This document shows, piece after piece, positions 32,201 through 64,000 of a stretch of 64,000 bases of DNA. Positions within the stretch are counted from its first letter, which is position 1. Every line of letters begins with the position of its first letter. The stretch lies in NCBI GenBank assembly GCA_036172245.1, contig JAYWIR010000018.1:2108001-2172000 (forward strand), written 5' to 3'. Under the pieces are notes generated by a model that ran no database searches, was not told the origin of the DNA, and saw only the letters and a list, made by a program, of their open reading frames with translations. The translations under genes were made by a program, and so were the position numbers. Source of the stretch: Raillietiella orientalis (Eukaryota).

Positions 32201-32511
32201 CATACGTGGTTGTACATTTGAATTTTTGTTCGAGACTACTGTTTTATTTAAAAGAGAAAAAAATTTCTTTTTGTGAAACCTTGTAAGGCATTTAACAAAG
32301 TATCACGAGAAATTACCGAAAATGAAATGACTCATTTCTCTATTAAAGTATCTTAATGCTTTTAACGTTGCACACTGTGCAGGAACGTTATTCTATTCCG
32401 TAGTTAAATGCAGTTGGTTTAAATCGATTTAAAAGAATTGCTTGAATTTTGTTAAAATAAGTTTGCCGTAGGTTATACTCTAATTCAAATGAGTAATTTC
32501 TAGCTTTGAAA

Positions 32512-42783: not shown

Positions 42784-45700
42784 ATGGATGTATCCCAGCC
42801 TCCTCCAGGTAAAAAATTCAAAAATCAGTTTATCTTTGTAGTACATTTGTTTACCTTGTTGCGTTTTTCAGTGTCATGTAAGTGTTTTTGTTATGAAAGT
42901 ATATTAAATGGGAACAGTCAGAAACATCTGAATCTTCTAATCCAAACGATTAAGAAAATGGGTTGGTTAGACCATTGTAAATAAAAATGGGAAACGGTTG
43001 ATTTTTGTAGGTTCATATTGAGTTTTGGGCAGCATGCGTAGATTCCATTATTTTGCGTACTTACTGCTATGTTTTGCATTGAATATTTGTGTGTTAAGCA
43101 AACTTTTATTGTTTTTTGTCGATTAAATTATTGTAAGAAAAGTTACATCTAGAAATACAGCAGTAACAGGATGTTCAGAACTTGTTCTGTGATAAAAGCA
43201 ACAGATTTGAAGCGAATGCGTTTTAATTTATAATGAAACATATTTTACAATTCAGGATTCAGAGGCAGCAAATATAAATATAAGCAATCTACTGATCAAA
43301 ATTTTGAGCTTTCTTTAATTTCTACATGATAAAAGTGTTGGACTGTTAAACTTTTTAAGCTGTACGATTTCATTTTTCAAGCTTTATTTTAACCCCATGA
43401 ATTTGCATATAAATATCAGTTCATTCAGCAGCAGTACAAAAATATATATTCTTAAGTAATAACCAGGCATTCTTGTTTCATTGGAATTTCTTCAATTTTT
43501 TCAGTAGAGCATTTCACTGTATGCTTCCCATTCATTCAGCATGAACAAATTTATGAACAGATTTTTTTGTTTGTTTATTTTAGATCCAGAACTTAAAACT
43601 ATTATCGATAAATTAGCTCAGTTTGTAGCACGAAATGGTACAGATTTCGAGCAGATGACCAAACAAAAACAAAAAGATAATCCTAAATTTAGTTTTTTGT
43701 TTGGTGGAGAATATTACAATTACTATCAGTATAAAGTTTCATCAGAACAAGCAAGTAAGTTAATCATTAATTTTGTACACTTTTGTTTATTGGTTGTCAG
43801 AATTGTCATTATTAAATCTTAGTGTGTATGAGTTCATCTAAATTGTTGGATTATTCAGCACAGGACTTAAAAATTATTGATTGAAATAAAAGTTCAGCTT
43901 TCATTTCATAAGAGCAATGTATAAAATGTCATGATTGTATTGCATTTAAACTTTTTCAGAATTTGACAAATTTCTTCATCTGTTGAGCATACTTAAGATT
44001 TAGAATCAATGTCTTTAGCGTACTTTAACTAAATTGGTGTGAACCATATGTGAAGCTGATAGTTTTTCCATTAAGAGTTTCATATAGGTATACTTTTTCT
44101 TATATCAAATGATAGAAGCTGCTACCTGCATTATGTATTAGTTGCATGATACAGTATGCTATACATTTCCTTGAACACACCATATCAACTAAATGAATGC
44201 TTTTACAGCTGTGAATTTGTATAAAGTTTATAGCTATTGTATTTTGCTTTTGCATTCTCAAACTTTTGGAGAATACTGAAAGCAATTGATTTTCAATGAA
44301 TTCTTTTTTATCTTAATGGAAGTCAAATGATAAATTGAATTAAGTGGTAAATTTTTTCATACTTTGTAACTGTAGTTCAAAAACTGACATGAAATATAAA
44401 GAGAGTGAAATTATTGTTATTCTCAGATATCTATGGAAGGTTTTTTTTTCTTCTGTGGTATGCACTTTACTTATTAAAGACACACCTACTCCCAAACTAA
44501 TATGATAAAAAGATAAGATATTTTGAGGATATAAGATATTTTTATTTTTTTTTGTGATATAGGCATTATGTTTGTGAAACTGATTATGTTTTCCTGTGCA
44601 TGGAAAAGTAGGATAAAAAAACAGTTTCTCCACCCAGAGTGTTTATTCTGGCATGCTATGGCATTTCCATTCAAAATTTGCAATTATCACTTCAATGAAA
44701 TGTAGGATTCTTTTTTTGTGTTTTTTCATGATAATTTTATACGAGCTCCTTATAATAATTATGTAAGTGTGAATTTAGTTTGAGATTTGCTATATAGATT
44801 ATGCTTGTGTTCATTAAGTTTAGTAATGGTTAAACCATATGGTCTAAGTATTGTTCTTATGGATTCTGCATATAGAGTTAACAGCATTGTTTTAACATCT
44901 CAGTAAATTTAAGGTTTGGAATTTCTTAGTCTATTTTTATCTGTTCAGTCCAAATTATGTGTTTATGTGGAAATTTTATAGATGGATGGGTGGACCAATC
45001 TGGTGTGCTTGTGCATCCCCCCCCCCCTCAAATTTTCTTTTTCTGGTATTTGCTTCAAAAGGCACCTAAAAGTGATTGAGGCAGCCTTGAGGGGCAGCCT
45101 TTTGTAAGTTTACATTTGGTTACAGCTATGAAGCTTTAAAAAGTCTCAGTATATATTGTAAAGAATTAAGAAAGAAGACAAGCAAACAGTTTTTTATATT
45201 TGACAAGAAGAATTATTTGATCAATTCATGGAATACGTACATTCAACCATCAAGGCAGATTTCTGCGAACTGTTTCCAATTCATTAGTGAAGAAAATTCA
45301 CAAGATTAATGTATCATCATATTTCCACGTTGCAGCATTACTAGTGAAATGTAAAAATTAGCCAATATTTACAAGAAAGAACTGTCTGTGTCTCAAAATT
45401 ATTCAGTCAGGGGAAAGAATACATTAGAGATTTATGCAGTGTAAAATTTATTTACAGTTCCCTGCAAGAAAGTTGTCATTAGCTGATGCCTTCAATTCTG
45501 AATCATCTTTGTGTATGAAGTTAGCTAATGTGTACAAATGCTTTTGTGTTTTTGCAGTGTATGCTTTTTTCAAACTCAGATCAGTTGCAATAAGTTGAAA
45601 TTCACTACTCACAATATAATAAAAGACTTTTTTTTGAAGCATAAGCATGTAATGCAGTATGGAGAATAGGAAAGAAAGAGCACACTTTGATGGAACTTAG

Positions 45701-48700
45701 AGGTACAAATTTCCATGCCTTCTGATTTATGCTGCTAATGAGTATGCTCTTGATTGACGTATGTTGTGTGAATATTAAATACAGAATGCACATGTATTTT
45801 TTATCATTTTAACATTGAAATGAGAATACAAATGTTATTCCAATGTTTCATGTAAAAAAGATCAAGTTCCTTTGGTATTATGGTTCTGAATGCTATTTAT
45901 TTACCATGAGATTAAGAATGATTAAAGACTTCCATCAGCCATGTTTTGGTGTTGAAAATTAGCGAAGTTGATCAATGAAATACAGTTGTAAACTTTAATG
46001 GTGAATAAAAGCATACTTGCAATACTTTATGAAAGCATTGTGTATCTATTATCATCCAAATGTGGCTTGAGAACCCTACAGTGATGCAACAGTGATGGCA
46101 AGAAATAAAATTAGCACTTGAGCAGAATGAGATACAGAAGTGAACGTGAGAATATGAACTTAAAAAAGCTGATATGGAACTTTTGTTTTGTACATTGGAA
46201 TTTCACGTATTTACTGTAGCTAATTTTGAGTGTCTCCAAGTTAACTTATATTTGAGTACATGTGCAAATCATTTTATGAACAACTTTTTCAATGTGGCAA
46301 TTTAATGGCATAAACAGCATGGATGTGCATAATTTAACAGAAATAAGAGTTGATGTACAATATTTTGCGAAGTAGATAGTAAATTAATTATTTTTGAAAC
46401 CATTGTCAGCTGTTTAAAGCTTTAAGTGCTTTTAAGTGTTTAAGCAGCATTTTGATCATCAGTTTGAACATTTTCTGGTGTAGAATAAAAACACCAGTAA
46501 CAAAGTTATTGAGTTTTATTATTCAGGGAAACAAAAAAATGGAAAAATAAAAGATCGATGAGCCCAAGGGAAACTTTCACTAAAAAAATCCGTTGGCCAG
46601 GTTTGCCATTAGAGAATTAGCTTTTTTCAGAATGATGATAAGGTTTTTAAAACTTGTCATATTAGGCTTGGTATCAAATCCAAGAATTTTGCGAATGATT
46701 TAATCTAATCTATAGTCTTAATTCAGTAATTATGGGACTGCCTGAGCTACTTTATGGTTTGCATTGCAATATTATTGTGATAAAAGTCAGTGATTAACTT
46801 AATCTTGCCATAGGAGTAAATTTTATTATTAATATCAATGCAGTTCCATTAGAGAAATTTACTGAAAGAATTATTATGAATGAAAATATAAGAATAAAAG
46901 TAAGTCGTATTTTGTTGTGAAGATATTAAGGATGTTAATATTGAATCTCTTCTTATGCATTATGTCAAATTCTTTATAAATATCTGACTTTTAGTCTTTT
47001 CCTGGAGAGGAACGTTTAGTGCGTGATTTAACTTAAATCTTATTTAAGCATATCCATTGGGCTAATCAGAACTGTAAATAAAAAATGTATAATCTTTTAG
47101 TTTTAAGACAGAGACAACAACATGTTGATCAAGGACATTCACATATGGCACCACCTATGCTAGGAATAAATGGAAATCTTAGAACAATTCCACCTGGGCA
47201 ATATCCTCCCTCACATATGGGACCCCATACTCAAAATTATCCTCCCCCTCCACAATGGACTTCTATGTATCCTCCTGGAAATATAGGCCCTCCACCCCAT
47301 CATCCAACTTCAGGCAACTTACCAAATCAGCAGACTTTAGAAAAATTGCTTATCCAACAGAAACAGTTGCAAGACCAAATTCAACAAAGTGAACAAAATC
47401 TGGCTGCTCAGCATCAGGTCTATAGTGATGCTAATGCATCTTGAATTTGTAGCATACAAGTAGCTGTTCTTTATTTTGATTAGGTGCTCATGGAACAGCA
47501 ACATGAAGATATTGAAGAAGCCATTAGGTGTGCTGAAGAACAGAGATTAAATCAATTGGCACATGAAGCTGGTATTGATTTTTTGGAAGTGGATCAGTTG
47601 CTTCAACCTATTGTTGAATCCTGTACAAAAGATTCTGTGTCACATGGTAAAGCATGGATTGTTTCACATGGCCATATGTTAGCCCATCAGGAATTTGTTT
47701 GCCGTTATTTATTAAAACGGTAAGTTGTCTTTTATTGGTTTATTTATTGCTGTTTTACATATTTATTGCTTTGTATTTTATTTAAAGGGCAACTGACCAA
47801 GATGCTACTTTTAGCTGCAAGTTGCATCTCATTTATTTGATCAATGATGTACTTCATCACTGGTAAGTTCATTTCTGTGAAGAGTGGGTTTTTATCTGTA
47901 GAACCTTAGTGTTAGGAAAGGTTCTGATGATCTGCGGAGGGCACTTGAAAATGCTGTTGTACCAATGTTCTGCAATGCCACTATTTCAGCGACTCCAGAA
48001 CAGAAAATGAAATTGGATAAGGTGAATAAACACTGGTTAATCTGACAAAAAAATATCATTGTGTTAGCTCCTCAATTTATGGGAATCAAAACACAATTAT
48101 TTTAGTGGATTGATTCTAGCAAAGTTGAAAAACCCATCTGAAGTTTGGGCTGATTATCAAGCTAGCCTCATCACAGATAATGCACATGTTATCACCCCAA
48201 TAACAACAAATGTTCAGCAGTTGTACGAACGCTATCAGCAGCAGCACCAAGCATTTGTTGCACATGCTACTCAGCAATTGCAGCAGCTGCAACAGCAACA
48301 GCAGCAACTTGATCAACAGTCTGCTGCATCTGTATCATTACAAATGTCTGGACGTATGTTGAATATTAGTGCTTCCATAATTTACTCTTGTCTGTTTATT
48401 CTCCTCAGGGCCAGATGCAACCTTTTGCCATCCTCCTCCATCCTTCAATCTTCCTCCTCCAGGATATCCACCTCCAAATCTGCCACCTGAATCTTCTGGT
48501 AGGGTAATTCATGATCAGTTTTTTCCTTAATCAGTGTTGTGAATCTCTAGTTGTGCTCCCACAGCTGCCTGACCTGACTAAACCACCTCCAGGCTATGAA
48601 CCTAATGAATTTAAAGAAAACTTGACTCCTAATGTACCTTATTATGAATTGCCTGCTGGCTTAGTAGCTCCTCTTGTAAAAGTATGTCAGCTTTATTGAA

Positions 48701-49515
48701 ATATACAATATTTGAGAATTCTAGTTGGAAGATTCCAGCTACCGACCTTTAAATCCTGATGACATTCGATTACCACCTCCTACTCCTCCTAGTGAACGGC
48801 TTCTTGCAGCAGTAGAAATGTTCTATAGTCCTCCATCTCATGATCATCCCATCGATAGGTATAATTCTTTTCCACAGATTTGTGTTACAGATCATCTTTC
48901 AGTGAAGGGTGGGAGAAACTCGGCTTGTATGAATATTTCAAGGCTAAAAATGCTGCAAGAAAGAAAAAAGAACAAGATATTTTAGAAGGACTTAGATCCA
49001 GGTCTCGTTCTCCATCTCCTGTAATGGGAGAGCGTTCTCCAGAATCTCCCTTGAGAAAACACAAAAGTTCAGAACAACTAGTCATATCCCCATTCAATCC
49101 TCTGCCACGGAGTCCTAGTAAAAGTCCTTCTCCACCCTCTTTTGTGTAAGTTTTTCATATTCTTTTCTGTTTTTTAGTAATTTTTATCGTAGGAATCATG
49201 TGTACTCTGGAGAATGTGCTAACAGGAAAATAGATGAATCTAATAAAGGTCATCAGCTCTTAAAAAAAATGGGATGGACTGGTATGGGAGGTTTAGGCCT
49301 TAAAGAACAAGGTATTGAGGATCCAATATCTGGAGGAGAAGTAAGTTGTGCATGTTTATTAGGTTTTGTGTTGATGAACATTTTAGGTTAGGGATCATGT
49401 AGATCAGTATCGTGGTATTGGATTAGATCTCAGTGATCCATTTGAGAATTTTCGCAAAAACAAGGGTATGGCATTTATCAACAGAATGAGGTCAAGGGCT
49501 GAAGAAAAACCATAA
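42784..49515 (+). CDS. CHERP: Calcium homeostasis ER protein CHERP/SCAF6 (SURP, CID and G-patch splicing factor), 13 exons, 698 aa
   Basis: Exons 42784-42808, 43584-43754, 47101-47417, 47484-47719, 47788-47862, 47910-48021, 48068-48353, 48409-48498, 48551-48681, 48725-48858, 48903-49145, 49193-49340, 49387-49515 (2097 nt, in frame). SURP IIDKLAQFVARNGTDFEQMTKQKQKDNPKFSFLFGGEY; CID LQPIVESCTKDSVSHGKAWI..KLHLIYLINDVLHHC; PYYELPAGLVAPLVK; EGWEKLGLYEYF; G-patch IDESNKGHQLLKKMGW; DPFENFRKNK. AATAAA at 49531-49536. Confidence 0.95.
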
Positions 49516-51087
49516 GTTTCATGTTTTGTTAATAAAAACAATGACATATTGTTGATTTGAGACATGGTTCCTCAGATTAACAATACAATTAAGTCTGTGA
49601 AAAAGGAAAATCAGCATGTAGTCCTTTGTCTGCTGTTTCAGTTGAAAAGGCCATAAGACATAAAGTTAATAAACAGCAGTTGGCAGTAAATTTTGTAAAA
49701 TGATTGCAGCTGTACCAGTGAATCTTTGTTGCCTGGCACATGTTGTACATGTTGCTAGAGGTCTTATTCAACAACGACTTCTTTGTTTAATCAGTAGGCT
49801 AATCATTCTTTAGTTTTTCTAATTGCACTGAATTTACATAAAAATATCTATTTGCATGTTAAACAATGTGTGGTTTGTTTGTTTTATTTTTTCCTTAATG
49901 TGAAGCAATACAAGAATCTGGTTGCAGAATCACAAGCAATGTTTTTATTGCTAAATCAGTATAAACTCAAGGATTTCCTAGAATCGTTTTCATGAACCTT
50001 GGCGTTTGAAATCAAAGACTTGACTTTCTAAAGGTGCTTGTTTTATTATTCCTTACCTTGGCATGCTTAAAAATGAAACAGTAAGGTTATTTGTGGTCTG
50101 ATAAACAAAGGAAAAATGGGGTATTTTTCCTGCAGTTGAGGTTGGAGTACAAGGCATGTAATAAACTGTTGTAAAAACAGATCTTGCTATTGTTTTAATT
50201 TCAAGTCAAATTGATTATAATGTATAAATGATCGTTTTTACCCAGCCTATTGCATTTTAAGGATTTACAAATATAATGTAAGCAAAGCAATTGTATTTGT
50301 TCTCAAATATGATAATGAAAAGAATTGTTAGTAGAAGGTATTCCATGTAAGAATTATGTTATCCGTGTATGATTATTTCTGAAATGAAATATAATTTAAC
50401 AGTTTTCAGTCTCCAGTGTCAAATGAATAAGCAGTTAGTACAAAAAGATTGAAACAAAACCTGCATTTTTTTCCAAGTATGTTTCACTGCGTAAATAAAA
50501 TTTGGTAGATATGAATTAGCATTTGCACATTGTGTTCAGCATTAGCATGTCATTAATGCAAGTTCTGAATGAATTTTGAAATTTCCGTTTTTGAATTCTT
50601 CAGAACATGAAATCAAGGTACAAAACCCAAAAAAGCTACACTAAGGATTTATCCAACATGCCTTCATGATTCTTTGTGAAAATAACAAACTTAGCATAGA
50701 TTTTTTTCATAGAAAATTCATGCTATCCAGTTCAGAAGTGCAACATGAGAAAATTTGAAATTCATTTATTTGTTAAATATATCAGAACGTATCAAAAAAA
50801 CATGTAAATAGTAGATCTTGAATGTTGTAAAGTGAAGAGTTGAATGATGAAGTGTGCATTGTTTGGTCAGACTGGTTGGTAATGCTAGATTATACACTTC
50901 CACCTTATCCATTCTTTTTGTTTTTATTAAAGAATGTCTTGTTATCTATGTAAAGGTGGAAGGTTTCAGCCGATGCATGCTACCACCTTTTTTGTTTTTT
51001 GCTAAATTATTCAATATGTTTATTTAGGTTTGCAGTTCATTCCTGTAGTTGTGCATTATTAAGGTATTAAGGAATGTTTTTGTTGCT

Positions 51088-52732
51088 ATGTTATATGTAG
51101 CCCTAATTATTTTATGTCAGGTAAGATTCTTGTTGCTTTAATAAACTCTTGTCTCCTCAGTTTGTTTCATCAGAAGTAGATATACAACAAGATATTTTGT
51201 TTCAAGAGTTTCAAGGTGAGGTAAGTGGAGGAAATTATACTTATTATTCTATTCCTGGATCCGGACGTTTTGCATTATTTCTTCATACAAGGTTTGTTAA
51301 GCTAACAATAAGATGTTATTAAATCCATTATTTTTTAGTTCTGGAGATGCGGATTTGTATGTATCACAGCATACCTTGAAGCCCACTTATGATCCAGAAA
51401 ATTACTGCTTATCTTCAGCAACTTTAGGTTTAGATGAAATTGAAATTCCTCAAAGGTAATTTTATACTTTAATGCATGTTTTTCCATTTGTTGGTTTGCA
51501 GTTACAAGAGGCCATTGGGAGTTGCTGTGTATGGACATCCTCGTTACAATCAAAGTACATATTTTTTACTAGTAGCATCTTTCCATACTGACCAGCAGTT
51601 AGAATTTCTCTATGATCAGTCATGGATCATGTCATCAACTGAAGTAAGTTTCACATTTGGTTTGATTTGTTTAGCATTTCTGAATATAGATAAAATAGGT
51701 ATAACTAAATATAGTGTAATCCCCAAGTGGAAGCATTGCATTTTAGTTACGTTTTTCATTTGTTTACATTGGTATCTCAGTTTTATTAGTGTAAGCTGAA
51801 AGCTATTGAATATTGTAGCAGGCAAACCGAAATTAATTTATTCAAAGGCAATAATTTGGAAACTTATTGAATTGTGTTTGATCCAGTTATGATGAACAGT
51901 GTTTGAATATACAAGACCTATATGTATTTTTGTATGTGTAGCTATGTTTATTTGTTGTTGTTTTTAATATAATTTTTACTACTTTAATGTTCAGTCATGG
52001 AACAAGTTGTTACAGAAAGTCTAGATTAGATAAAGTTTAGAGTCGATTCTCGGAGTTGAAAGTGAAAAGTAATGTGGAATTGTTATACTAAATACAAACC
52101 TCATGGTATTTTTGTTGGTTAGTAATAAGTAAGAGATGAAGGATTGATTGTGCTTATGTCTGTTATATCATAATAGAAGTTAAATTTAAATGGAGACGAC
52201 TATACTGTTTTCTGAAGAGGGAAAATGATTGCAACAGAAGACTTCGAATTGAGTGGCATTAATTGAGTGTCAAATAAAAGAATTGTTTTATTATTTATTG
52301 ATACTATCAGTTTTGCTAAATTAAGGTTAAGTATGTGTGTCGCTAATTACGTATTATTAGTATTAATCAGCAGCTATGATTTTTTTGTAAGAAGTGCGTA
52401 TTTAAAGAATGATCTTAGAGAGCTAATAGATTTGTGCTACAAGGTTGGAGAGGTCTGTCTCAAAAAAATACTTAAGTATTGAAATATAATCGTTTGGCTT
52501 GTTTCAGCACAACACTATTGAATACAGTAGTCGACTGATCTCCATTTCGATAATATACAATGCTTATTTTTAAATCAACGTAACTGGTGTTTATGTTATT
52601 TTTGTTGGTAGTTTTTGTTATTAATGTAATCAGAGTTCTTGTCTGTTCTTATAGGAAGTAGGATGGGCTACTCTCGTGCTTCTTATTGTTCGCAATATTA
52701 TTGAAATATTGGTAGAAGCTCTGTTACTATAA
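51088..52732 (+). CDS. C6orf120: UPF0669 / C6orf120 homolog (signal peptide, hydrophobic C-terminus), 5 exons, 166 aa
   Basis: Exons 51088-51120, 51161-51291, 51339-51455, 51502-51643, 52655-52732 (501 nt, in frame; introns 40, 47, 46, 1011 nt). Protein: MLYVALIILCQFVSSEVDIQQDILFQEFQGEVSGGNYTYYSIPGSGRFALFLHTSSGDADLYVSQHTLKPTYDPENYCLSSATLGLDEIEIPQSYKRPLGVAVYGHPRYNQSTYFLLV..TE|EVGWATLVLLIVRNIIEILVEALLL*. The motifs G.V..GNY.Y, GDADLYVS, SAT.G.D, RP.G..VYGHP and the W..L..I..I.EIL tail are characteristic of the family. Confidence 0.88.
52040..52650 (+). promoter_or_regulatory. Candidate internal promoter for ERCC4 inside the last C6orf120 intron
   Basis: CpG dinucleotides are visibly denser here than in 49.5-52.0 kb, as seen upstream of the other housekeeping genes. 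No motif-level proof. Confidence 0.3.
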
Positions 52733-52741
52733 CTTCTTACA

Positions 52742-55700
52742 ATGTTGAGCTACGAAAACCAAATTTTTCTCGAACTGCTTCAGGAAGATGGTCTAGTGAT
52801 TGCAGCTAAGTAAGACATTTTTATCAGCGATTTGTTTCTAGCTAATAAATCCCAGGGGCCTGAGTCTTGAAAAAGTTTTTATTAACTTCCTTAAAATATA
52901 TTGTGAGCCATCCAATTTGGTAATTGTGATCGGAACTAATGCTAAAGAAGAACAGTATTTCATCCAGCAATTAGAAAAGGATTCGGTTAAACCTCTCCCC
53001 CGATCGGTCACTGCCGAAGTGAACGCCAGTGAACGGTAAGCTTTTATTCAGTTTGCTTTTTATTTCAGTTGTTTTAGTCATCTCGTATACATGAAAGCAG
53101 GAGTCTTATTTGTCACATCACGTATTCTCGTGGTAGACTTATTAACAGAACGAATTCCAGTCGATTTAATCACAGGAATTTTGTTGTACAAGGCACATCG
53201 ATTGATTTCATTTTGTCAGGAAACATTTATTCTCCGTTTATTGCGTCAACAAAATAAGGTATAAATCTATAAGATGTCCGTGCAGCATTGTAGCATCCTG
53301 TTTGTTATTCTGTTGTAGAGTGCTTTTATCAAAGCATTTTCATCCAATCCACTTTCTTTCACTTCCGGGTTATGCCATTTGTCAAGAGTGATGCGGCATC
53401 TTTTTGTCAAGGAACTGTACCTCTATCCACGTTTTCAATTGACTGTGCATAACTGTTTGTCCGAAGTGCAGGTGACCAATCAAATATTGTAGTTTGATCT
53501 TGAAATTTAGAGTCTAGCCTTCGGTCATTGAATTGCAGTTGAAGATGAGTCCCGCCATGAACACTTTGCAAAGTTCTCTCTTAGATCTTATTCAGATTAC
53601 ATTATCCGAGATAAGACATTGCAATTCAAAAGTATACATGCATCATTATTTTATTCTCCATGTAGTTGATTGTTTCTCTTCCAGTTATGCCTAGAGGAGT
53701 TGTCAGTCGAGAATTCGCTCTCTAATGTGTTCTTGAAGAATTTAGAGAATGAATTGAAGCCTGTTTGGCATCAGCTGAGTCCGAAAACGCGTCAGTTAAT
53801 TGCGGATCTGCGTACGCTTCGCTCTGTATTAAGGTGTGGTTTAGTGTAGTACATTGCTTGATATGTTATTAAAGATGTTTAGTTCTCTGACTCAGGTTGA
53901 CTCGGTAACCTTTTATTCACTTGTGAGTTCCTTAAGAGCCACAGAAGTGGTATTAAAGAGCTCAGGATGGGTATTCTTGGATTCAGCCGAAACACTCTTT
54001 GTTGTCAGCAAGGAACGAGTTTTTGGAACGAAGCAGAAAAGTAATGATAGGGTGATACGTGCTGTACTAATTGTTTTGGGGATTCCAAAGCACCACAGTT
54101 TGAAGTTAACCCAAAGTGGCTTGCACTTTCTGAGGTATTGCAAGAAATCTCAATGCAATCCAATCTCCAGAATTCCGATTGTATTCTTGTGGTTGCTTCT
54201 GATGAGCAGACTTGCAGATATTTGTGTGAGGTATTTTTTTTTTACACAGGCCAACAATAGTTCTAAGAAAACTGAATTCAGTATCTGTGTGATGGAGCGG
54301 AATCATTGCTGACGAGACTATTTAATAGGCTGGTAGCATCAAAATTTGGATTGCCTTCAATTTCGGAAACTAAAGAAAAGGGAAATTCTAAAAGTAATGA
54401 AGATTCTTGTATTACTCTCACTCAGCTCATTGGAAAGCGTGACAAGCATACAGATTCTGCAGGCATTCCAGAGCAGCTCCCAGAACAATCGAACCTCGAT
54501 TCCGACAGTCTTTTTACTCCAATTCAATCCCCCTTAACTATTGTTCATGCTTTAAAATATTCCGAAGATCCTTTCCATCTGCATAAAGTTCTGGAAAACA
54601 TGAAACCTACACATATTGTATTATATGATGTGCAAGTTGCTTTTATTCGTCAATTAGAGGTATGCAGTTGAGCAGTCTAATAAACACACAGTATGTCCAG
54701 GTGTACCAAGCACGCAATCCTAATCTTCCCCTCAAGGTGTATCTCCTCATGTATGAAAATTCTGTGGAAGAACAGATGTATTTAACATCTCTCCGCAAAG
54801 AAAAGGAAACGTTTGAGTGGCTCATTAAAGAGAAAGCGGTAGACATATCGAATTGATTGGAAGAAAATTCAAGTTCTTTAGAAACTTGTGTTACATACAG
54901 ATTGGGATACGCATCCAGATTTAGAACGCAATAATCATATCAAGGCTGGTGATGATGCAGTTTTACCAAGTACGAATTTTCGAACGGGAAGCAATCTTAC
55001 CTCTTTGTCTCGTGTCATTATCGATCTTCGTGAGTTTCGGTGCCAGCTGCCATCTCTCATCCATCAGTGGGGCATGGAGCTGGACCCTGTCACCTTGCAG
55101 GTTTGTGGGCGTCGTCGTGAATCCTCATTGCCGTGTTCAGGTAGGAGACTACGTCTTAACACCAGACATCTGCGTGGAGAGGAAAAGTGTAAGCGATCTG
55201 ATCGGTTCCCTTAACTCTGGGCGCCTCTACAACCAAGCGGTAGCCATGACACGCTGCTATCAGCGCCCCATGCTGCTCATTGAATTCGACCCCGACAAAC
55301 CGTTCTCTTTCATTCAGAGTCGTTTACCGTATGACAGTGCATCGTTTAATGTGCTGTCTAAACTCATCTTGCTTACTTTGCACTTTCCCGGTTTGCGTCT
55401 TCTTTGGTCCCCCGGACCGCATGCATCCGCAGAGCTATTTCACGAGTTGAAGGTGAGTTTTGCAGTACGGGGCGCTCAAGCAGGAGTGGGTCTTTTCAGG
55501 TCGGACAACTGGAACCCGATTTAACCAAAGCTCTAGCGGCCACGTCCGAAGATGCAGATAATTCGGAAGAATTCAATCCAGCCATTTACGTAAGAAGAGA
55601 GCTGGTCAAATATAAATGAAACTTTCAGGATTTCGTATCCAAACTTCCTGGAATTAACTCCAAAAACATACGTAGACTTATGAATAAAACAGAAAACCTG

Positions 55701-55900
55701 GAGCATTTGCTGCGGTTATCGGAGGTTCGTATCTTCCGGAAGTGTGCCGAATCTATTCTTCGATTTTCCAGCAAGAGATTGCGGAGATTCTTGAAAACAC
55801 ATCCGATGCAGCGGAGCTGTGGCAGGGTTTACACGTGGCATTGGAGACCGATTTGCCACCCAGAAAACGCACCCGAACACGATTTCCCAAAAGATCGTAG
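52742..55900 (+). CDS. ERCC4: DNA repair endonuclease XPF (ERCC4/MEI-9/Rad1), 15 exons, 834 aa
   Basis: Exons 52742-52809, 52856-53035, 53078-53258, 53319-53471, 53518-53631, 53685-53833, 53883-54040, 54091-54230, 54282-54659, 54701-54838, 54882-55100, 55141-55452, 55500-55589, 55629-55724, 55772-55900 (2505 nt, in frame). Motifs: [98 protein letters not shown], nuclease [32 protein letters not shown], Hh[10 protein letters not shown]. Confidence 0.96.
52844..52849 (+). terminator. AATAAA in ERCC4 intron 1, candidate poly(A) signal for C6orf120
   Basis: First canonical hexamer downstream of the C6orf120 stop (about 110 nt), located within the 46-nt intron 52810-52855. Function is inferred. 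Confidence 0.35.
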
Positions 55901-57031
55901 GTTTCGTTTATCCCGAAAACCTCCGCAATGGACATTTTGTATTGTTGAAATATGTATGTACATTAAAATTTTGCCACGCTCCAGTATTCCTGTTTGTTGT
56001 AACTTTATAACATTTGCTCGCGTTTCGCTGAAGTGAGACGATGCAGACGTTCGTCGTGGTTTTTACGTGTGTTCCTTGTATTCCCAGTGCTACACGGTAA
56101 GGAAGAAACCCTTTGCTCACGGTCCTCCTAACCTGTGTGCTCCTGAAAACTGTTTTTGCCCTTGACTACCTTCAGCGATGCGCACAACTTCGAATCTGCG
56201 TTATCTGGGTCAAGTGTGCGAAATTCTCGCATTTTTGGTGCATCCTAAACGTGTGTGCCCCGATAAATTTCAGGTTTTCAAGAAATCCGTAGCCAATAAA
56301 GTATAATGAGAACGATCGCAATCCACATGCCCGGTTGTAAATTAGGCGCTAAGTATCCACTGTGACTCTTCGAGGTTTCTCTTTGAAATTCAGCACTTTG
56401 GGAAGCACCATTACTCGCATGAATCCGTTTACGTGAGAGCTTCAGGGTTCTCATTTGGGTTTCGCTGCTAGCTACTGGCATGGTTCTGTTTTTCGGGTTC
56501 CAGGACGCACCCGTGGAACCTGGAAGCACATCCGTCGTGTGCCACCTGAGGTCAGAATTGCAGACGGTAAAACTGCCTCCATCCCTGACTGGTTCCAAGA
56601 CCGTAAACTTGATCCTCTTTCCCATAGGCGTTGGGTCATCGATATGATCCGGATCTCGAGAGTTGCAATTATTCCCCCTTTCTCGGAGTGCGTTCCACCT
56701 CATTCGTCAAAAACAGGACGTTTCGCTGCAGGACTAAAACGAGACAGCGATTCACACATGCAGTGAAACGCATGTAACTCGAAATGAAGGCATGGGAAAC
56801 GACTGGGGTTTCCGCCTCGGATGGCGAAGAACGCTCAAACATGAAGAAGGAGAAAGTGTTTTTCTTTGCCGGTCAGTGCGGCGCTTGGCAGCAGTGGTCA
56901 GTGCGAGCGAGCGAGACCTTAGCGCTGCAGAAGCTGGCTTCAAGGTGGTCTTTGGTTCTGATTGCGGACATGCAGCATCGGAAACAAGGTATTAAGTGGA
57001 TCGGAGACCACATAAATGTGTACATCTGGAG

Positions 57032-58186
57032 AAGCAATAGCAAGAGCAACAGGCAAAAAAAAAAAAAAAAAAAAATTCGCACCTCTCGGACGAGCTGAGG
57101 GAGGTGTCTTGACATGTTGCTGGACATGTTGACAGGGTAAGGGGGTAAGTGGGACGTTGTGTGTCTACGCCTCTGGAAATGATTTGCTGCAACAGGAATA
57201 AGGTGGTGTGGCCCGTGCTTCAAACTCGATACTTTCAGTTTCATTTTTTTCGTTTTCGTTTTGAATTTCGATTTGCAAACTTTCGCTTTGTAAAAATCCA
57301 TTCAGTGTTTTCCGTTCGCACGATGATGAAGATCCACATTGCTATTGTCAAGAAGAAAAGAAATCACTTCAGGGTTTGTTGGGTTTTAAGAAGAATTCAG
57401 AGTTCGAGTATCTGAGGGATCCATTCTTCAGTCCGCTTACCAGTTCTGATTCGAATTTATTATTGGATTTTGTCCTGTGGTCTTGAACTTCCAAAATGAT
57501 CCATAAAGAGGAACATCTGGGGCGGGGGGCTTGCTAAAGTGTTAGTTCCCGGAAAATTTTCCAGGTTCTGTTTGTGGACTGCAATTAACTATGTGCGTTC
57601 TCCATTGCAAAGCACGATACAGAATTCGACGACCTCTTTAAATCAGATGCCCGCTGTGATGAAGCGGGCGCGTGAAAACCAGGAAGCCATCCGTTAAGCA
57701 CCCGGCAGATTCCGCGTCCTCTGTCCACTCTAAGCATAGCATCGTGGAAGCCATTTCTGAAATCTTGTACAACCGCGCTTTTTTTCATTTCTTCCTGAGT
57801 GGCGTCGATATCTGCATTGGACTCTGTCACCGATGTCTTAATCCGGGCTCATTGTAGCCGACACAGAAGTTTGGAGCTTGCATCTGTACCAGCTCCTATT
57901 CCGGAAGACGAATCTTCTGAACGTTATGTAGCATTTCGTCTCTTGGTTTTCTACATGGCTGAAAACGTGGTTTGGATATTCGAGAAGAGTCGGACATCGA
58001 GGGGTGTTGCATCCTGGACACCTTTCACAGTATATGACTACGCTGGACATCTTCAAAAGTACGAAGCGAACCAGGAAAACACAATTAGATAGAAACAAAC
58101 TTGGAAAAAAAGTGTCAGAAGTGCATCCTGACGAGCTGCAGGGTCCGAATTTTTTTTTTTTTAGCCTGTTGCTCTTGCTATTGCTT
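57032..58186. repeat. Short inverted repeat pair
   Basis: aagcaatagcaagagcaacaggc (57032-57054) is the exact reverse complement of 58164-58186. The match extends through the A/T homopolymer and attcg/cgaat (57079 and 58146). Confidence 0.8.
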
Positions 58187-58344
58187 TCCTCGGAAATTGC
58201 GAAGGGCAGGTCGAGGGAGACAAATTCGTCTCGAACAACATCAGTACCTTCAAGTTGTCGTGCTCACGGAGGTCTGATTTAGTAGAGGGAAATTTCCCGG
58301 CTTCAGCTAGTGGACACTAGAGATGGTGGTCGATACAGCCAACG

Positions 58345-58607
58345 TTCCTGGAGTTAGTGGCAGGAAATTTGGATACGAAATTCCTAAAGTCATTTTTATC
58401 TGACCAACTTTCTGCTTACATAAATGCTTGGACTAAATTCTTCCAAGTTATCTGCATCTTCGGACGTGTGCGCTATAACTTTGCTTAAATCAGCTTCTGG
58501 TTCTCCGATCTCAGAGGCCATTCCTGCTTAAGTGCCCGACCTTGATTCATGAAATAGCTCCTCGGATGCGTGTGGTCCTGGGCGCCAAGCAAGACGCTGG
58601 ATGAAAG
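58345..58607 (-). pseudogene. Inverted, intron-retaining pseudocopy of the ERCC4 3' region
   Basis: The reverse complement aligns to ~55303-55320 plus ~55395-55667 (e.g. cacgtccgaagatgcagataa and atttcgtatccaaa identical). Translation RLAWRPGPHASEELFHE versus [18 protein letters not shown]. Homologues of introns 55453-55499 and 55590-55628 are present. Confidence 0.85.
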
Positions 58608-61600
58608 GAATCGCTCCTAGTCGTCTCCCGATTACATCTTGTTGAAAAATCGTTGCCAAAAACGTCAGATCGGATGTTTGCAAGTGCTGGCAGCTTCTAG
58701 TACTTGGAAGACACAATCAAGAGCTGGACTTATTGGGCACGCTTGACGTAACATTTTGGAGGCTGAGTCGCACATGTCAGTCAGGTGGATCAGAAAACTT
58801 GGGAAGGAGACAATGAGCCCCAAGTGAGCAGTTCTGGGAGGAGATCTGGGTTTAGCCACCGTTCCGAAGTACTTGAAGAGCGAGCAATTTGTTGGGAAGG
58901 CTCCATTTCAACCTTTTACGCTCCACTTGAAAGCCATTATGCTAAATAAAGAAAGCAGATTCTTAGACAGATTCCCGATAGCATTTCCTTGCGGCTACGG
59001 GTGTGCTATGTTACTTCAGAGGCGTTCGAGAAGATGACAAAAGCAACGATTATCTGAACAACGTTGCTGTATCCTACCACAAGCTTTGAAGAGAATAGGA
59101 AGCAGATGATAACCGTTTCGTCTCTTACTTTTTAATAAATGCCTTAGGATAGGAAACTGACTCGCGTTTCTGACTGCCCCCCTTCCCCCGCTCGATCGGG
59201 TAGCTTCTGAGCGACATAGCAACACAAGAGTACAGATGGCCTCATCCAGAAGATCAGACTCGATCAAGGGACACACGGATAAGTGCTAGGGAAAAAATAA
59301 AATTAAAAAAAATGAAGGCCTCTCTGAAAGTGCACAGGAGCACGAAGATGCATTGCAGACGAAGGTGATTCGAGGGAGTCATTCGGTGAGGGCTAGTGGA
59401 TGACCAAGCGTTCTGCAAGCTGTGATTGGAGGAAACTCAAAATAACTTCCGCTCTTTGAGGGTACCAGACGTTTCCTTAGTTCCTCCAGCATGCAATCGG
59501 CAGCATCAGCAAGGGGATCGATCATCCAAGCACCATACGAGGAAGCAGAACCCGAAGTGATGTTCGCAAGCCTCATTTGTCTGTTTCCGGGAAACGGTTT
59601 CTTCTTGAACGGACGATTCCTTTTGCAACCTCATTTGTTCGATGCTGCGCGTAAGAGGCGCTGCGAAAAGCGTGAACGGGAGTATGCAGTCACAAAAAAA
59701 AAAAGCAACGAAAGAAGTGGAATCTTTGTGACCCCGTCCTAATCGATCCATCACACAACTTCGCTGGCTGCTGGGAGTGAAAGAACTGCTAGTAAAAGAG
59801 AAACTAAACAAGGCGGCTCCGAGGAGAATCCTATGAAAAGCAAATTCGAGACTCACCGGAATGCTGAAAAACGAGACGTGAGTGCCGAAGACTCTAATTC
59901 ATATCTGAGAAGTGGTACTTGCATGAGCATCCCGACTGTCATCGTTAATTCTGAGATCTCAGCACAGGCTCTGTTAGCTCCATTCGTAATTTAGACTTCT
60001 CGTTAAAGATTCGGATAATGGAATAAGTGTTTTACTGCTTGAGCACGCATCTGTCACTGCTCGTTTGTGTGGTTATTAGACAATTGCTTTACCACGCAGG
60101 GAACATGCACAGGGGGTTTCCGGATCATCAGCTGATGCCATCCTCCACACATCAGTTTCCTTCCGGTCGGTTCCTTCTTTTCCATGGCAATAATTACGCA
60201 CGTTTTCACGATTCCAAGAATTTTTTTCCAGGTCCGCAACAGAACGCTGTTGACCATGGTCGCTAGGGGGATTTTCTACTTTTTATTCTCTTGTGATAGA
60301 ACCTTTGTCGTCTCACATAAAGAGGTGGGGATCGAAGGCTAAATTTTCATCTTAGGTAAGTAAGAAATGTGCTACATCCCAAGGCAGTCTTTTTGTTTTC
60401 TCTTTCCTCGTATGAACCAGCATTCATGTTACCATTTCATCGATGCGTGCGATTTTCTTCACTATTCTTAGAGGAAAAGCAGACGCCGGAAGGGTTTGCT
60501 TTCTTTCAAGGATTTTCAGATTCGCTGCTACGAATCGCTTTGTTTACGTTTTGCTTGTATTAGGAAGATCTGCAACTTGTCGTGTGTGTCTCTTAGTCCC
60601 TCATCCCTTTTCGTGTTCACGGTTACAAGGAGAGGACTCATCCGGGCTGACAAAAAACAAAGGGAATAATATTTTTCTGAAACCATTTTCTCAGCAAACG
60701 AGAAAGGAGCGATTTCGTGTTATGGACCGTGATGTTTCTGACCTGGGTTGTTTCCATGACACCTGTGACCAACTTTTGCTGTCAGGAAGGAATGCATTGC
60801 CAAGCGTTCAAATAGAAGAAACCATTCCATCACCGAATTCTTTCCGCATTGGTAGTGCATTCCTTAAATGAGTCTTTTTGTTACCATCATAGTCAAAAAC
60901 TTTCCGTGGTAAGAACTCTTTTCACTGTGGAGGCAGGAAGGATTTCTTTCTCATGAAAGGATGTTGAATTCGTTTCGTGAAACGAATTTAAAATTAAAAT
61001 CTCGCTGCACCATTAAGAAAAGTCTTGAGTGTGTGATCTGAGTTTCACTAAGGAGTGCAAGAAAATGAGGAAAGTAGAAACGTTTGAAAGACATCTGAAA
61101 GAGGGAGCGAATACCGACCAGAAAACATCTAATCAGCAAGCATTGCAAGTTTGCGTCCTCTCCCAGATCGTCAAGTGACAGCAAAGGTAAGTCGTATTGC
61201 AACCACAGTAGGCAAAGCTTGGAAAGTGTGGTACAGAAGGAATTTTGCCACTCCTTCTCCTAGAATGGTTCCAATGTCTACGCACAGTATTGCCGAAGTA
61301 ATGGAACAGTAGAAAACTTGGCACAAATCTACAGTGAGCGTCCCGAGAGAAACTTCCTTGCTATTCCCCCCCCCCCCCTCCGTGTTTGTGCACCCAATCG
61401 CTCTTCTGCTGATCGATCATTCGATTGGTGTCTTTCCATCGATGCAAATTCGGCTCACTCAGTGCTGCTCCTCATCTGTCTCTTGGTGAAACCAAATTCT
61501 GACCAAACTACGCGGACCTGAATCCTTCCGTTTAGAAACAAAAGAACGAACATGGGGGAATAGGGTACCCAGGGAGGGTCGCCGTTGCCACCCCTGCCAT

Positions 61601-63059
61601 TCTTTCATGATTTTTATTCTAATTCCAGAGCTTCACTTGTATGTTTTTCTCATTCATGCGCTTGCGGTTGTTAGAATGTCATCATAGTTGAGCATAATTA
61701 TTACTCCGTGGTTCATTTTTGATTGTCTGCGGTCTTCCGTGACCTGCTCCCAGCAGAGCAAATGTCTCGGGTCCTCTAAAATAAGTCGTACTGCAATCAT
61801 GCATTCCTCGATCGAAGAAGTCGCAGCGAAAGTTGAGCATCCTCCAGCCTGCTTGTTCAAGTGACCCTCAGGGTCGAGCATTCATTCGTGACTTTTTACC
61901 ACCTCGGGTAACGACTCCCAAAGGCAAGGTCTCATCTGTCTGGTTTCATTGCAGTTATAGTTGAACACAACTGGTACTTAATTGCAATCCATACTTAACA
62001 AACGAGTAACGTTATGGTCGAGGAAGCCATCTTGATAAAACGTCATGAGTTGCATGGGATTCTGTTATCTTGTGACCTGTGCTTCTCCTCTGCTGTTTGC
62101 CTCCGAAACATAGTTTTCTGCAGACGTTTTCTGAGTCATCCCCTCGCTTTCGAACTCTCGCCAGCAGGAAACTGCATCTTATCATGAGCTTTCAAATAAC
62201 AGACGTGGATGAACTTTGGCATTCTCATGCTGTTTCTGGCAGAATTTCTTCTGACCTTTCGGTGCGGTTCCACATGCATCAAGCTTGAATTAATGCACAT
62301 CTCACCATGATCCTTGATCATGATCACATCACCTCAAACTTCTCTGTGCCTAAAGAGTTTCAGAAGCCTAAAAAAGTGCAGCCTCAAGAGGTAAAAAGTA
62401 AACTTTCGTATAGTTAGAAGAGAATTTGCGACTTTCCCTTTCTATTCTTTTATCTCAACTTTGATCTCAATCTTCTCCTTGCTGTTTCGTCCCTACTCCA
62501 GATGTGTTCTTTGTTGAAACAAAAAGCGCCGCTAGTCTACTGAAAAGTCAGATTCTATGGGGTAGATCTTTTTGGACATAAGAGCAGAATCGACTAGAAA
62601 ATCAAAAAAAAAAAAAAGAAAGGGTCATCAAATTTGGGAAGTCTGCGGCCAACGCACTTCGTCTTCTCTTAGTGAAGAAGCGCTCGCATCGGTTCTCTGG
62701 GAAGCGTTCTCACTACTCAGCTGCCAGTGAAATTTTTTCTGCAATAAGGGGTTCGAATGTACCAGAGGCTCTGGCGTGACAGTGACACGACTCCTCAGGT
62801 CGCTCACCTGACCTCATTCTCAATACTTACAAGCCGGAGCATTGCAGTTTAGAATGTGCATGAAGTTCTCGGGAAGTTCTGCCCCATTCCTTGTTCTCAG
62901 ATGAATTAGCGTAGAGCGCAAGAAGATCTAAGCAACCAAACTTTCCAAGCTGCTTTTCATCGAAGGAGTGCATCAAATTATTTGGAATCCAGCATCCGCA
63001 AATGGAATTTTTCGCATCCATATAACCACATGAGTTATGATTTTTATTCATCACTCCTT

Positions 63060-63860: not shown

Positions 63861-64000
63861 CTGTACAACTAAATTCTCGATCGTTAGTTGTTTGGGGAAC
63901 TCGACCCGTTACCTACCGCTCTTTGGACGAAAAATGCCCATCCTTCCTTCTTCCTCCCTACAGTTCTTCTGTCGCGTAGGCAATCCTCCTGGAAAGAAGA

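What the first reader, a model, noticed from the sequence alone, without database searches (positions are those of the whole stretch)
51088..52860. C6orf120 stop codon 9 nt before the XPF start: candidate bicistronic or shared-exon unit with a splice-versus-polyadenylation switch
Seen: the last C6orf120 coding exon (52655-52732, EVGWATLV..EALLL-TAA) is followed by only cttcttaca and then the XPF ATG (52742). One continuous exon, 52655-52809, therefore carries the end of one protein and the start of another, with no room for a 3'UTR or promoter. An AATAAA sits inside the 46-nt XPF intron 1 (52844). An out-of-frame 13-codon uORF (ATG at 52663) lies in the same exon. Inference: either a dicistronic mRNA with re-initiation, or an XPF promoter in the 1-kb last C6orf120 intron. 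In both cases cleavage near intron 1 would compete with its splicing and decide whether XPF is made. I know of no described C6orf120-ERCC4 coupling.
Basis: partly seen in the sequence, partly recalled or inferred. Interest (0 to 1): 0.85.

Follow-up and report, generated by a model that had tools for sequence, protein, structure and literature searches.

The report
C6orf120 and XPF share one exon
In this animal genome, probably an arthropod's, the last coding piece of a small secreted-protein gene ends nine bases before the start of the DNA-repair gene XPF, a tight tandem overlap of a kind already catalogued in fruit flies, and how XPF gets expressed here cannot be settled without RNA data.

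Summary
A five-exon UPF0669/C6orf120 gene (51088-52732) ends with TAA at 52730-52732. The XPF/ERCC4 start codon follows at 52742, so one genomic exon (52655-52809) carries both.

Exons 2-4 match the family strongly. Exon 5 encodes the family's C-terminal hydrophobic helix. It ranks 2 of 2600 window ORFs against 25 homologue C-termini, while the read-through end ranks 771. HMMER alone does not find it significant.

The XPF ATG aligns with Met1 of a bee XPF at 82.6% identity.

I found no RNA runs, genome or close relatives, so the expression mode is inferred. My best reading (about 0.5) is overlapping tandem genes. The C6orf120 3'UTR would run into XPF, and XPF would be transcribed from the 1011-nt last C6orf120 intron. 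That intron is an outlier among about 17 introns, of which 15 are 40-60 nt.

A functional dicistronic mRNA gets about 0.22. Other options are trans-splicing and a shared promoter.

The splice-versus-polyadenylation switch rests on one AATAAA, which has a 5-13% chance expectation. Drosophila has 159 annotated dicistronic pairs, some with 7-11 nt spacers. This is a new member of a known kind.

The parts
51088..51120 (+). C6orf120 (UPF0669) exon 1: ATG and a hydrophobic N-terminus
   Evidence: model. The spliced model aligns to the 25-homologue profile from position 3.
51161..51291 (+). C6orf120 exon 2
   Evidence: The ORF holding it hits the homologue profile at E=2e-7, positions 12-55.
51339..51455 (+). 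C6orf120 exon 3, the best conserved part
   Evidence: Pfam PF17065 E=4.2e-8, 33.6 bits. Homologue profile E=2e-19. 56 library proteins at E<=0.001.
51502..51643 (+). C6orf120 exon 4, followed by donor GTAAGT at 51644
   Evidence: Pfam PF17065 18 bits. Homologue profile E=9.3e-8. Donor seen.
51644..52654 (+). Last C6orf120 intron, 1011 nt; candidate site of the XPF promoter or 5' leader (inferred)
   Evidence: Length. The other three introns of the gene are 40-47 nt, and 12 of 13 heuristic XPF introns are 40-60 nt. No repeat copy elsewhere in the window. No Rfam match at or above a gathering score in the whole window. At E<=1 over 51600-52900 there is one match: a Tetrahymena C/D snoRNA family at 51614-51679 on the minus strand, 26.9 bits against a cut-off of 70, E=0.25. 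No Pfam hit for its ORFs. CpG observed/expected rises from 0.0-0.7 (mostly 0.2-0.5) to 0.7-1.05 at about 52000.
52655..52732 (+). C6orf120 exon 5: C-terminal hydrophobic helix and TAA stop (52730-52732)
   Evidence: In phase with exon 4, with acceptor ttcttatag. Rank 2 of 2600 ORFs against homologue C-termini, z=5.0. The only 1 of 2600 ORFs matching a regex of the family's C-terminal end, written post hoc. Not significant by HMMER: 2.4 bits, E=44.
52663..52704 (+). Out-of-frame 13-codon uORF inside the shared exon, ATG in context AGGATGG
   Evidence: It is the last upstream ATG before the XPF ATG.
52733..52741 (+). 9-nt spacer CTTCTTACA between the C6orf120 stop and the XPF start; contains no AG
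52742..52809 (+). XPF (ERCC4) exon 1, starting at the ATG
   Evidence: P0006 residues 1-23 align at 82.6% identity and P0084 residues 12-34 at 65.2%. There is an in-frame stop three codons upstream.
52810..52855 (+). XPF intron 1 (46 nt), holding AATAAA at 52844-52849
   Evidence: It is one of only two AATAAA on the + strand between 51600 and 53400; the other is at 52273.
52856..55900 (+). Rest of the XPF gene: about 13 further exons and the ERCC4 nuclease domain at 55141-55452. Exon ends are heuristic and the stop is near 55898-55900.
   Evidence: tblastn with six XPF homologues. Intron heuristic. Pfam ERCC4 E=1.6e-19. ORF end.

Best explanation
Two unrelated, intact genes overlap head-to-tail on the + strand. 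The genomic exon 52655-52809 is both the terminal coding exon of C6orf120 and the first coding exon of XPF.

The C6orf120 stop lies 9 nt before the XPF ATG. Every C6orf120 mRNA that uses exon 5 must therefore take its 3'UTR from XPF sequence. It most simply ends after the AATAAA at 52844, about 112 nt past the stop, in or just after XPF intron 1.

I infer that XPF is made mainly from its own transcripts. These would start inside the unusually long 1011-nt last intron of C6orf120, or inside exon 5. Their short leader would hold at most the 13-codon uORF.

On this reading, read-through C6orf120-XPF RNAs are a by-product and not the source of XPF protein.

Shown here: both gene identities, the exon structure, the spacing, and the outlier length of the intron. 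Inferred: where transcripts start and end.
For: Exon 5 belongs to C6orf120:
- It is in phase with exon 4 and has a strong donor and acceptor.
- It ranks 2 of 2600 ORFs against the C-termini of 25 homologues, while the read-through end ranks 771.
- It is the only 1 of 2600 ORFs with the family's end pattern.

The XPF start is at 52742. It aligns with Met1 of a bee XPF at 82.6% identity, and an in-frame stop lies three codons upstream.

Translation of XPF from a capped C6orf120-XPF mRNA looks disfavoured:
- The 510 nt from the C6orf120 ATG to the XPF ATG hold 12 ATGs, against a shuffle expectation of 9.8 +/- 2.9. That rules out the AUG depletion that leaky scanning would need.
- From established knowledge of eukaryotic initiation, reinitiation after a 166-codon ORF across a 9-nt gap is inefficient.

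The last intron is 1011 nt. The gene's other introns are 40, 47 and 46 nt, and 12 of 13 heuristic XPF introns are 40-60 nt. It is not a repeat, holds no detectable ncRNA or protein domain, and its second half has a higher CpG observed/expected ratio. All of this is compatible with regulatory content.

The last 76 nt before the XPF ATG (52666-52741) are free of ATG, and the XPF ATG has A at -3.

Only one AATAAA lies downstream of the stop within 650 nt, at a normal 3'UTR distance.

FlyBase regards 3'UTR/5'UTR overlap of same-strand neighbours as common (PMC4528330, passage read).
Against: There is no RNA evidence of any kind for this locus.

No recognisable core-promoter combination lies in the intron. 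Four Inr-like hexamers were found, none with a TATA or DPE partner, and there is only a 6-of-8 DRE-like core at 52547 (motif definitions recalled, not from a tool).

The CpG shift rests on small counts and runs parallel to a regional GC gradient.

Long introns exist elsewhere in the window: CHERP domains are spread over about 6 kb. A 1-kb intron is therefore not by itself proof of a promoter.

In Drosophila, 45 of 159 dicistronic loci make both proteins only from dicistronic mRNA, and several have 7-11 nt spacers. A tight spacer is thus fully compatible with true dicistronic expression.

HMMER does not find exon 5 significant.
Confidence: 0.5

Rival explanations
1. This is a functional dicistronic locus in the FlyBase sense. 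A processed C6orf120-XPF mRNA, with XPF intron 1 spliced out and its AATAAA therefore removed, is the main or only template for XPF. XPF is translated by internal initiation or by termination-reinitiation across the 9-nt spacer. Use of the intronic poly(A) site instead yields C6orf120-only mRNA.
For: There is no room for a promoter or 3'UTR between the two CDSs.

There is direct precedent in an arthropod. Drosophila has 159 dicistronic pairs, and 45 of them are exclusively dicistronic for both members. The listed stop/start spacers include 7, 8, 9, 10 and 11 nt, mostly between unrelated genes (supplementary file 2).

The only downstream AATAAA within 650 nt lies inside a 46-nt intron, so splicing would remove it.

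The best named C6orf120 matches are insects.
Against: Upstream AUGs are not depleted (12 observed against 9.8 +/- 2.9). The upstream ORF is long at 166 codons.

The spacer is very short for reinitiation. This rests on established knowledge and was not tested here.

The outlier 1011-nt intron is unexplained by this model.

The AATAAA is expected by chance in 5% of 46-nt stretches and 13% of 120-nt stretches.
Confidence: 0.22
2. This is a spliced-leader trans-spliced operon, or alternative cis/trans splicing. One pre-mRNA covers both genes. XPF mRNA is made by trans-splicing of a leader to an acceptor upstream of 52742. That acceptor is either the shared one at 52654/52655 or the AGs at 52714-52718 inside exon 5. 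Trans-splicing competes with cis-splicing or 3' end formation of C6orf120.
For: The gene spacing is far tighter than elsewhere in the window. Candidate acceptors exist: ttcttatag at 52646-52654, and ggtag/aag at 52711-52718.

From recalled knowledge, not read here, SL trans-splicing occurs in some crustaceans, nematodes, tunicates and rotifers. In those groups downstream operon genes lack promoters.
Against: There is no AG in the 9-nt spacer.

No SL RNA or other Rfam family reaches its gathering score in the window.

The best named C6orf120 relatives are insects, where SL trans-splicing is not known (recalled).

The organism is unidentified, so its splicing repertoire could not be tested.
Confidence: 0.1
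3. The two genes share a promoter and an acceptor. XPF transcripts start at or upstream of the C6orf120 promoter and splice from an upstream donor directly to the acceptor at 52655. One example is the exon-1 donor at 51120/51121, which is in phase and would leave a 36-codon upstream ORF ending 9 nt before the XPF ATG. The two genes would then be alternative splice products of one transcription unit.
For: Exon 1 is 33 nt, and exon 5 starts in phase 0, so the skip is frame-compatible.

FlyBase lists genes that share exons, and usually a shared splice site, as a recognised intermediate class.
Against: There is no evidence for such junctions. It adds steps without explaining the long intron. It still needs reinitiation across 9 nt.
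Confidence: 0.08
4. Exon 5 is not used. C6orf120 ends by read-through of the 51643 donor, with a stop at 51797-51799 and AATAAA at 52273. On this reading the 9-nt spacing is a coincidence of an ORF in the XPF leader.
For: HMMER profiles do not detect exon 5. An AATAAA exists at 52273, downstream of the read-through stop. 4 or 5 of the 25 predicted homologues lack the terminal helix.
Against: Exon 5 ranks 2 of 2600 ORFs against homologue C-termini, while the read-through end ranks 771. The family's end pattern is unique to exon 5 in the window. The splice sites are strong and in phase, with an exact in-frame stop just before the acceptor.
Confidence: 0.05

Closest known systems
Drosophila melanogaster dicistronic gene pairs as annotated by FlyBase (Crosby et al. 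2015, PMC4528330). Pairs listed there include Lasp/CG43954 (9 nt), CG30100/CG42372 (10 nt), CG34140/Mkp (7 nt) and DNApol-gamma35/CG33649 (4-nt overlap).
   Same: Both involve two unrelated protein-coding genes on one strand whose stop and start are a few nucleotides apart. Often there is an alternative monocistronic form made by an alternative poly(A) site, a retained intron or an alternative promoter (passages and supplementary file 2).
   Different: For the fly pairs, a processed mRNA spanning both CDSs is documented. Here no RNA was available. mei-9, the name I recall for the fly XPF gene, does not occur in the 6 supplementary files searched; file 1 was not searched. This particular pairing is therefore not the fly one.
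Same-strand tandem genes whose 3'UTR overlaps the 5'UTR or first exon of the downstream gene, and genes sharing an exon with a shared splice site (FlyBase 'adjacent genes may share exons'; PMC4528330 section read).
   Same: One genomic exon serves two genes, and the downstream gene keeps its own promoter inside the upstream gene.
   Different: Here the overlap is extreme. The upstream CDS itself ends inside the shared exon, 9 nt from the downstream ATG, so the upstream 3'UTR must include downstream coding sequence.
SL1-type operons of Caenorhabditis elegans and intercistronic-region-free operons of tunicates (recalled; only the search listing of PMC1657053 and PMC1488885 was seen).
   Same: The downstream gene starts essentially where the upstream gene ends, and processing of the two mRNAs can be mutually exclusive.
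   Different: Those need spliced-leader trans-splicing and an acceptor at the junction. Here there is no AG in the spacer, and trans-splicing in this organism is unknown.
Polycistronic loci of green algae (PMC7896298 and PMC11892635; abstracts seen in the listing).
   Same: One mRNA carries two ORFs with short spacers.
   Different: Per the second abstract, the algal loci rely on leaky scanning. The 11 internal ATGs upstream of the XPF ATG argue against that here.

Membership tests
UPF0669 / C6orf120 (Pfam PF17065) | Match to the family profile above the curated cut-off | tested here: met
   Exon 3 alone scores 33.6 bits against a cut-off of 27, E=4.2e-8. The spliced model scores 156 bits over profile positions 3-131 of a 25-homologue profile.
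UPF0669 / C6orf120 (Pfam PF17065) | C-terminal hydrophobic helix that ends the protein (acidic stretch, often W, then a hydrophobic run with E/D a few residues before the stop) | tested here: met
   By eye it is present in about 20 of 25 homologues. By regex it is present in 13 of 25. Exon 5 ranks 2 of 2600 ORFs and is the only regex match (regex written post hoc). HMMER gives 2.4 bits, E=44, which is not significant.
XPF / ERCC4 endonuclease | ERCC4 nuclease domain and full-length collinearity with animal XPF | tested here: met
   Pfam PF02732 E=1.6e-19. 70-72% identity to animal XPFs over 104 aa. tblastn is collinear from residue 1 to about 807-837 of 852-869 aa homologues.
Dicistronic gene (FlyBase / Sequence Ontology gene_with_dicistronic_mRNA) | Two complete, non-nested CDSs on one strand with no space for independent 3' end and promoter between them | tested here: met
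   9-nt spacer.
Dicistronic gene (FlyBase / Sequence Ontology gene_with_dicistronic_mRNA) | A processed mRNA that spans both CDSs | not testable with these tools
   No sequencing run was listed and no genome is held.
Dicistronic gene (FlyBase / Sequence Ontology gene_with_dicistronic_mRNA) | Downstream CDS translated from that mRNA | not testable with these tools
   There is only indirect sequence evidence: upstream AUGs are not depleted.
Spliced-leader trans-spliced operon | Trans-splice acceptor between the upstream 3' end and the downstream ATG | tested here: not met
   There is no AG in 52733-52741. The nearest AGs (52714-52718 and 52653-52654) lie inside or at the start of the C6orf120 coding exon.
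Spliced-leader trans-spliced operon | Organism has SL RNA genes and trans-spliced mRNAs | not testable with these tools
   There is no Rfam SL family in the window. No genome or RNA data are available.
Intronic polyadenylation versus splicing switch | A functional poly(A) site inside an intron whose use competes with splicing | tested here: inconclusive
   AATAAA lies at 52844 in the 46-nt intron. The chance expectation is 4.9% per 46 nt. Usage is not testable.

The most novel reading that the evidence does not exclude
XPF in this lineage has no promoter of its own. It is made only from a C6orf120-XPF dicistronic mRNA, by termination-reinitiation or internal entry across the 9-nt spacer. The choice between splicing XPF intron 1 and cleaving at its AATAAA sets how much DNA-repair nuclease the cell can make. 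This would tie XPF dosage to the transcription of a secreted-protein gene.
Probability: 0.1. Interest if true: 0.55.

Novelty: new member of a known kind. Interest (0 to 1): 0.3.

Why it matters
If XPF really depended on a dicistronic mRNA and on an intron-versus-poly(A) choice, this would be a compact natural example of reinitiation after a long ORF. It would also be an unusual way of dosing a core DNA-repair nuclease.

As it stands, the locus is best seen as one more tight tandem overlap of the kind catalogued in Drosophila. It is useful mainly as a warning for gene prediction:
- The two CDSs are in the same frame and separated only by TAA and three codons, so they are easy to fuse.
- The last C6orf120 exon lies 1 kb away from the rest of the gene, so it is easy to miss.

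Tried and rejected
RNA evidence: no RNA holder was listed for window 50800-58800, so read laying could not be used.

Whole genome: none is held.

Earlier notes of the scan: none for this place or sequence. The word search returned only archaeal, bacterial and phage XPF findings that do not bear on this locus.

Word-indexed protein searches with C6orf120 exon 4 and the exon-3 ORF found nothing. The full HMMER library search with exon 3 then gave 56 hits.

The repeat gave one locus, L001. It is a chance match to the intron-derived head of the query, and it has neither XPF nor C6orf120. Synteny in other genomes therefore could not be tested.

HMMER detection of exon 5 failed with Pfam, with a full-length homologue profile and with a C-terminal profile.

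Promoter motif scan of the intron: nothing convincing.

Intron as a repeat, ncRNA host or protein-coding region: rejected.

Leaky scanning: rejected on ATG counts.

C6orf120-XPF fusion by stop read-through: the frames allow it. I consider it unlikely, because a signal-peptide protein fused to a nuclear nuclease makes little sense and TAA is the least leaky stop (recalled).

Matching contig lengths of Logan/JGI C6orf120 and XPF proteins, to spot shared transcripts, gave no equal lengths among those listed. This is not informative.


Full report
**What is there.**
The region lies in the AT-rich part (30-35% G+C) of a compositionally very uneven eukaryotic window.

Reading the sequence and joining GT..AG-bounded pieces in a script gives a five-exon gene. 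The exons are 51088-51120, 51161-51291, 51339-51455, 51502-51643 and 52655-52732. The introns are 40, 47, 46 and 1011 nt. The CDS is 501 nt, giving 166 aa and a TAA at 52730-52732.

Nine bases later (CTTCTTACA) comes an ATG at 52742. It opens a 68-nt exon, followed by a 46-nt intron (52810-52855) that holds AATAAA at 52844.

So is the read-through stop at 51797-51799.

One extra point: exon 5 and the next gene's first exon are in the same frame, separated by TAA and three codons.

Yes, both.

C6orf120:
- Pfam UPF0669 (PF17065) matches exon 3 alone above its curated cut-off (33.6 against 27 bits, E=4.2e-8) and exon 4 at 18 bits.
- A full HMMER search of 1.84 billion representatives with the 38-aa exon 3 gave 56 proteins at E<=0.001.
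- I fetched 26 of them and used the 25 that are 142-236 aa long. I left out P0121, a 138-aa fragment with an internal duplication. The other 30 were short fragments or multi-repeat proteins of more than 1000 aa, and I did not fetch them.
- A profile of these 25 finds the ORFs that hold exons 2, 3 and 4 at E=2e-7, 2e-19 and 9e-8 among 2600 window ORFs.
- It aligns the spliced model over profile positions 3-131 at 156 bits. This validates the first three splice junctions.

XPF:
- Window 55141-55452 hits Pfam ERCC4 at E=1.6e-19.
- That stretch is 70-72% identical to animal XPFs. 3271 proteins scored E<=1e-5 among 3422 candidates, and the best 120 were listed.
- tblastn with six of them is collinear across 52742-55876.
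- Residues 1-23 of P0006 (named Apis cerana XPF by its source) align to 52742-52810 at 82.6% identity. With an in-frame stop three codons upstream, 52742 is the start.

**Is exon 5 really part of C6orf120?**
This is the crux, and the evidence is mixed but favourable.

Against:
- Pfam does not see the 25-aa exon.
- The full-length homologue profile does not see it either.
- A profile of the homologues' last 40 residues gives it 2.4 bits, E=44.

For:
- By eye, about 20 of the 25 homologues end in an acidic stretch followed by a hydrophobic helix that terminates the protein.
- I scored the last 30 residues of all 2600 window ORFs (15 aa or longer) by Smith-Waterman against the 25 homologue C-termini. 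Exon 5 ranks 2nd (z=5.0), and the end of the read-through ORF ranks 771st.
- A regex for the family's end matches 13 of 25 homologues, or 8 of 25 when a tryptophan upstream is also required. I wrote it after seeing both sets, so it is post hoc. It matches exactly one window ORF, which is exon 5.
- The exon is in phase with exon 4. It has a GTAAGT donor and a pyrimidine-rich acceptor, and it begins immediately after an in-frame stop.

I put the read-through alternative at about 5%.

**What organism?**
It is unknown. No genome is held, and no database protein is closer than 72% (XPF) or 71% (C6orf120 exon 3).

Among the 20 C6orf120 hits I looked up, the named ones are all insects: Timema, Lycorma, Homalodisca, Hetaerina and Bemisia. 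XPF exon 1 is closest to a bee's. I therefore treat the organism as probably an arthropod without a sequenced close relative. This is an inference.

Neighbouring genes:
- glutathione synthetase (27823-28419, +)
- DAD1 (about 32512, +)
- a RING-CUE ubiquitin ligase (33112-34719, -)
- CHERP (43508-49388, +)
- a CFAP65-like gene in the 60% G+C block (12839-13753, -)

Gene spacing is otherwise in the kilobase range.

**How it most likely works.**
C6orf120 transcripts that use exon 5 have no 3'UTR of their own, so they must run into XPF.

On the + strand between 51600 and 53400 there are only two AATAAA (52273 and 52844) and no ATTAAA. The second is 112 nt past the stop, a normal distance. That hexamer is not rare here, though. 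It occurs 1.29 times per kb, with a 4.9% chance in 46 nt and 13% in 120 nt.

For XPF the question is where its RNA starts. Several observations lean towards an independent start inside the last C6orf120 intron or exon 5.
- The intron is 1011 nt. The other three introns of the gene are 40-47 nt, and 12 of 13 heuristically placed XPF introns are 40-60 nt. The 13th, at 196 nt, probably hides an exon.
- The intron is not a repeat. It has no ncRNA or domain that I could detect. CpG observed/expected rises from 0.0-0.7 (mostly 0.2-0.5) to 0.7-1.05 at about 52000. This rests on small counts and is confounded with a GC gradient.
- The mRNA stretch from the C6orf120 ATG to the XPF ATG holds 12 ATGs, against 9.8 +/- 2.9 in shuffles. 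Leaky scanning is therefore out. Reinitiation after 166 codons over 9 nt is inefficient by the established rules of eukaryotic initiation.
- The last 76 nt before the XPF ATG are ATG-free.

I found no convincing core-promoter motif. With no RNA, this remains an inference, at confidence about 0.5.

**Rivals.**
- A truly dicistronic mRNA is a serious alternative (0.22). In Drosophila, 159 gene pairs are annotated as dicistronic, 45 of them exclusively so. Most involve unrelated genes, and the supplementary table lists spacers of 7, 8, 9, 10 and 11 nt (PMC4528330: passages read; supplementary file 2 searched; file 1 not searchable).
- Spliced-leader trans-splicing (0.10) lacks an acceptor in the spacer, and there is no sign of it in the window.
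- A shared promoter with exon skipping into the shared acceptor (0.08) is frame-compatible but has no support.

Competition between splicing of XPF intron 1 and cleavage at its AATAAA is possible only in the dicistronic or shared-promoter models. It rests on a single hexamer, so I regard it as unsupported, not refuted.

**Comparison with what is known, and verdict.**
The arrangement belongs to known classes. These are same-strand neighbours with 3'UTR/5'UTR overlap or a shared exon, and dicistronic loci.

The particular pairing of C6orf120 with XPF is not in print as far as my searches reach:
- 'C6orf120' plus 'ERCC4' gives 3 papers, by the search listing all gene-list or review contexts.
- 'UPF0669' gives 5 papers.
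- 'C6orf120' gives 72 papers, of which 20 were listed, all biomedical.
- mei-9, the name I recall for the fly XPF gene, is absent from the Drosophila polycistronic tables searched.

This is a new member of a known kind, with interest 0.3.

Noticed in passing
window 58344-58596 (- strand) versus 55498-55667 and the end of the nuclease exon: There is an inverted partial copy of the XPF 3' end about 2.7 kb downstream of the gene. Its arms are 122 nt at 81% and 56 nt at 77% complementary. A tblastn hit at 58596-58534 (-) matches the end of the ERCC4 domain. It looks like a pseudogene fragment.
   Followed up: partly
window 1-14000 versus 20000-54000 versus 54000-64000: G+C is very uneven: about 60%, then 30-35%, then 43-50%. 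There is a gradient from 35% to 50% inside the XPF gene itself. The 60% block is eukaryotic and not bacterial: a CFAP65-like gene lies on the - strand (Pfam Ig_CFAP65_4th E=1.2e-12 at 12839-13753, and ASH at 4788-6089).
   Followed up: partly
window 52655-52809: The last C6orf120 exon and the first XPF exon are in the same reading frame, separated only by TAA and three codons. Gene predictors could fuse them, and stop read-through would give a fusion protein.
   Followed up: no
window 50000-52800: CpG observed/expected is 0.0-0.7 (mostly 0.2-0.5) across the C6orf120 gene and its upstream region. It rises to 0.7-1.05 from about 52000, in the second half of the long intron. The counts are small.
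   Followed up: partly
window 57032-57068 and 58150-58186: A 37-nt inverted repeat, 97% complementary, ends in long A/T runs 1081 nt apart. These may be the ends of a small mobile element.
   Followed up: no
window 27823-28419, 32497-32739, 33112-34719 (-), 43508-49388: Other genes recognised by Pfam are glutathione synthetase, DAD1, a RING-CUE synoviolin/AMFR-like ligase and CHERP (Surp, DUF7819, G-patch). CHERP has introns of kilobase size, unlike C6orf120 and XPF.
   Followed up: no
window 32492-32511: A 3' splice-site-like tttctag lies 8 nt upstream of the DAD1 ATG. It could be a 5'UTR intron acceptor or a trans-splice acceptor. This is not interpretable without RNA.
   Followed up: no
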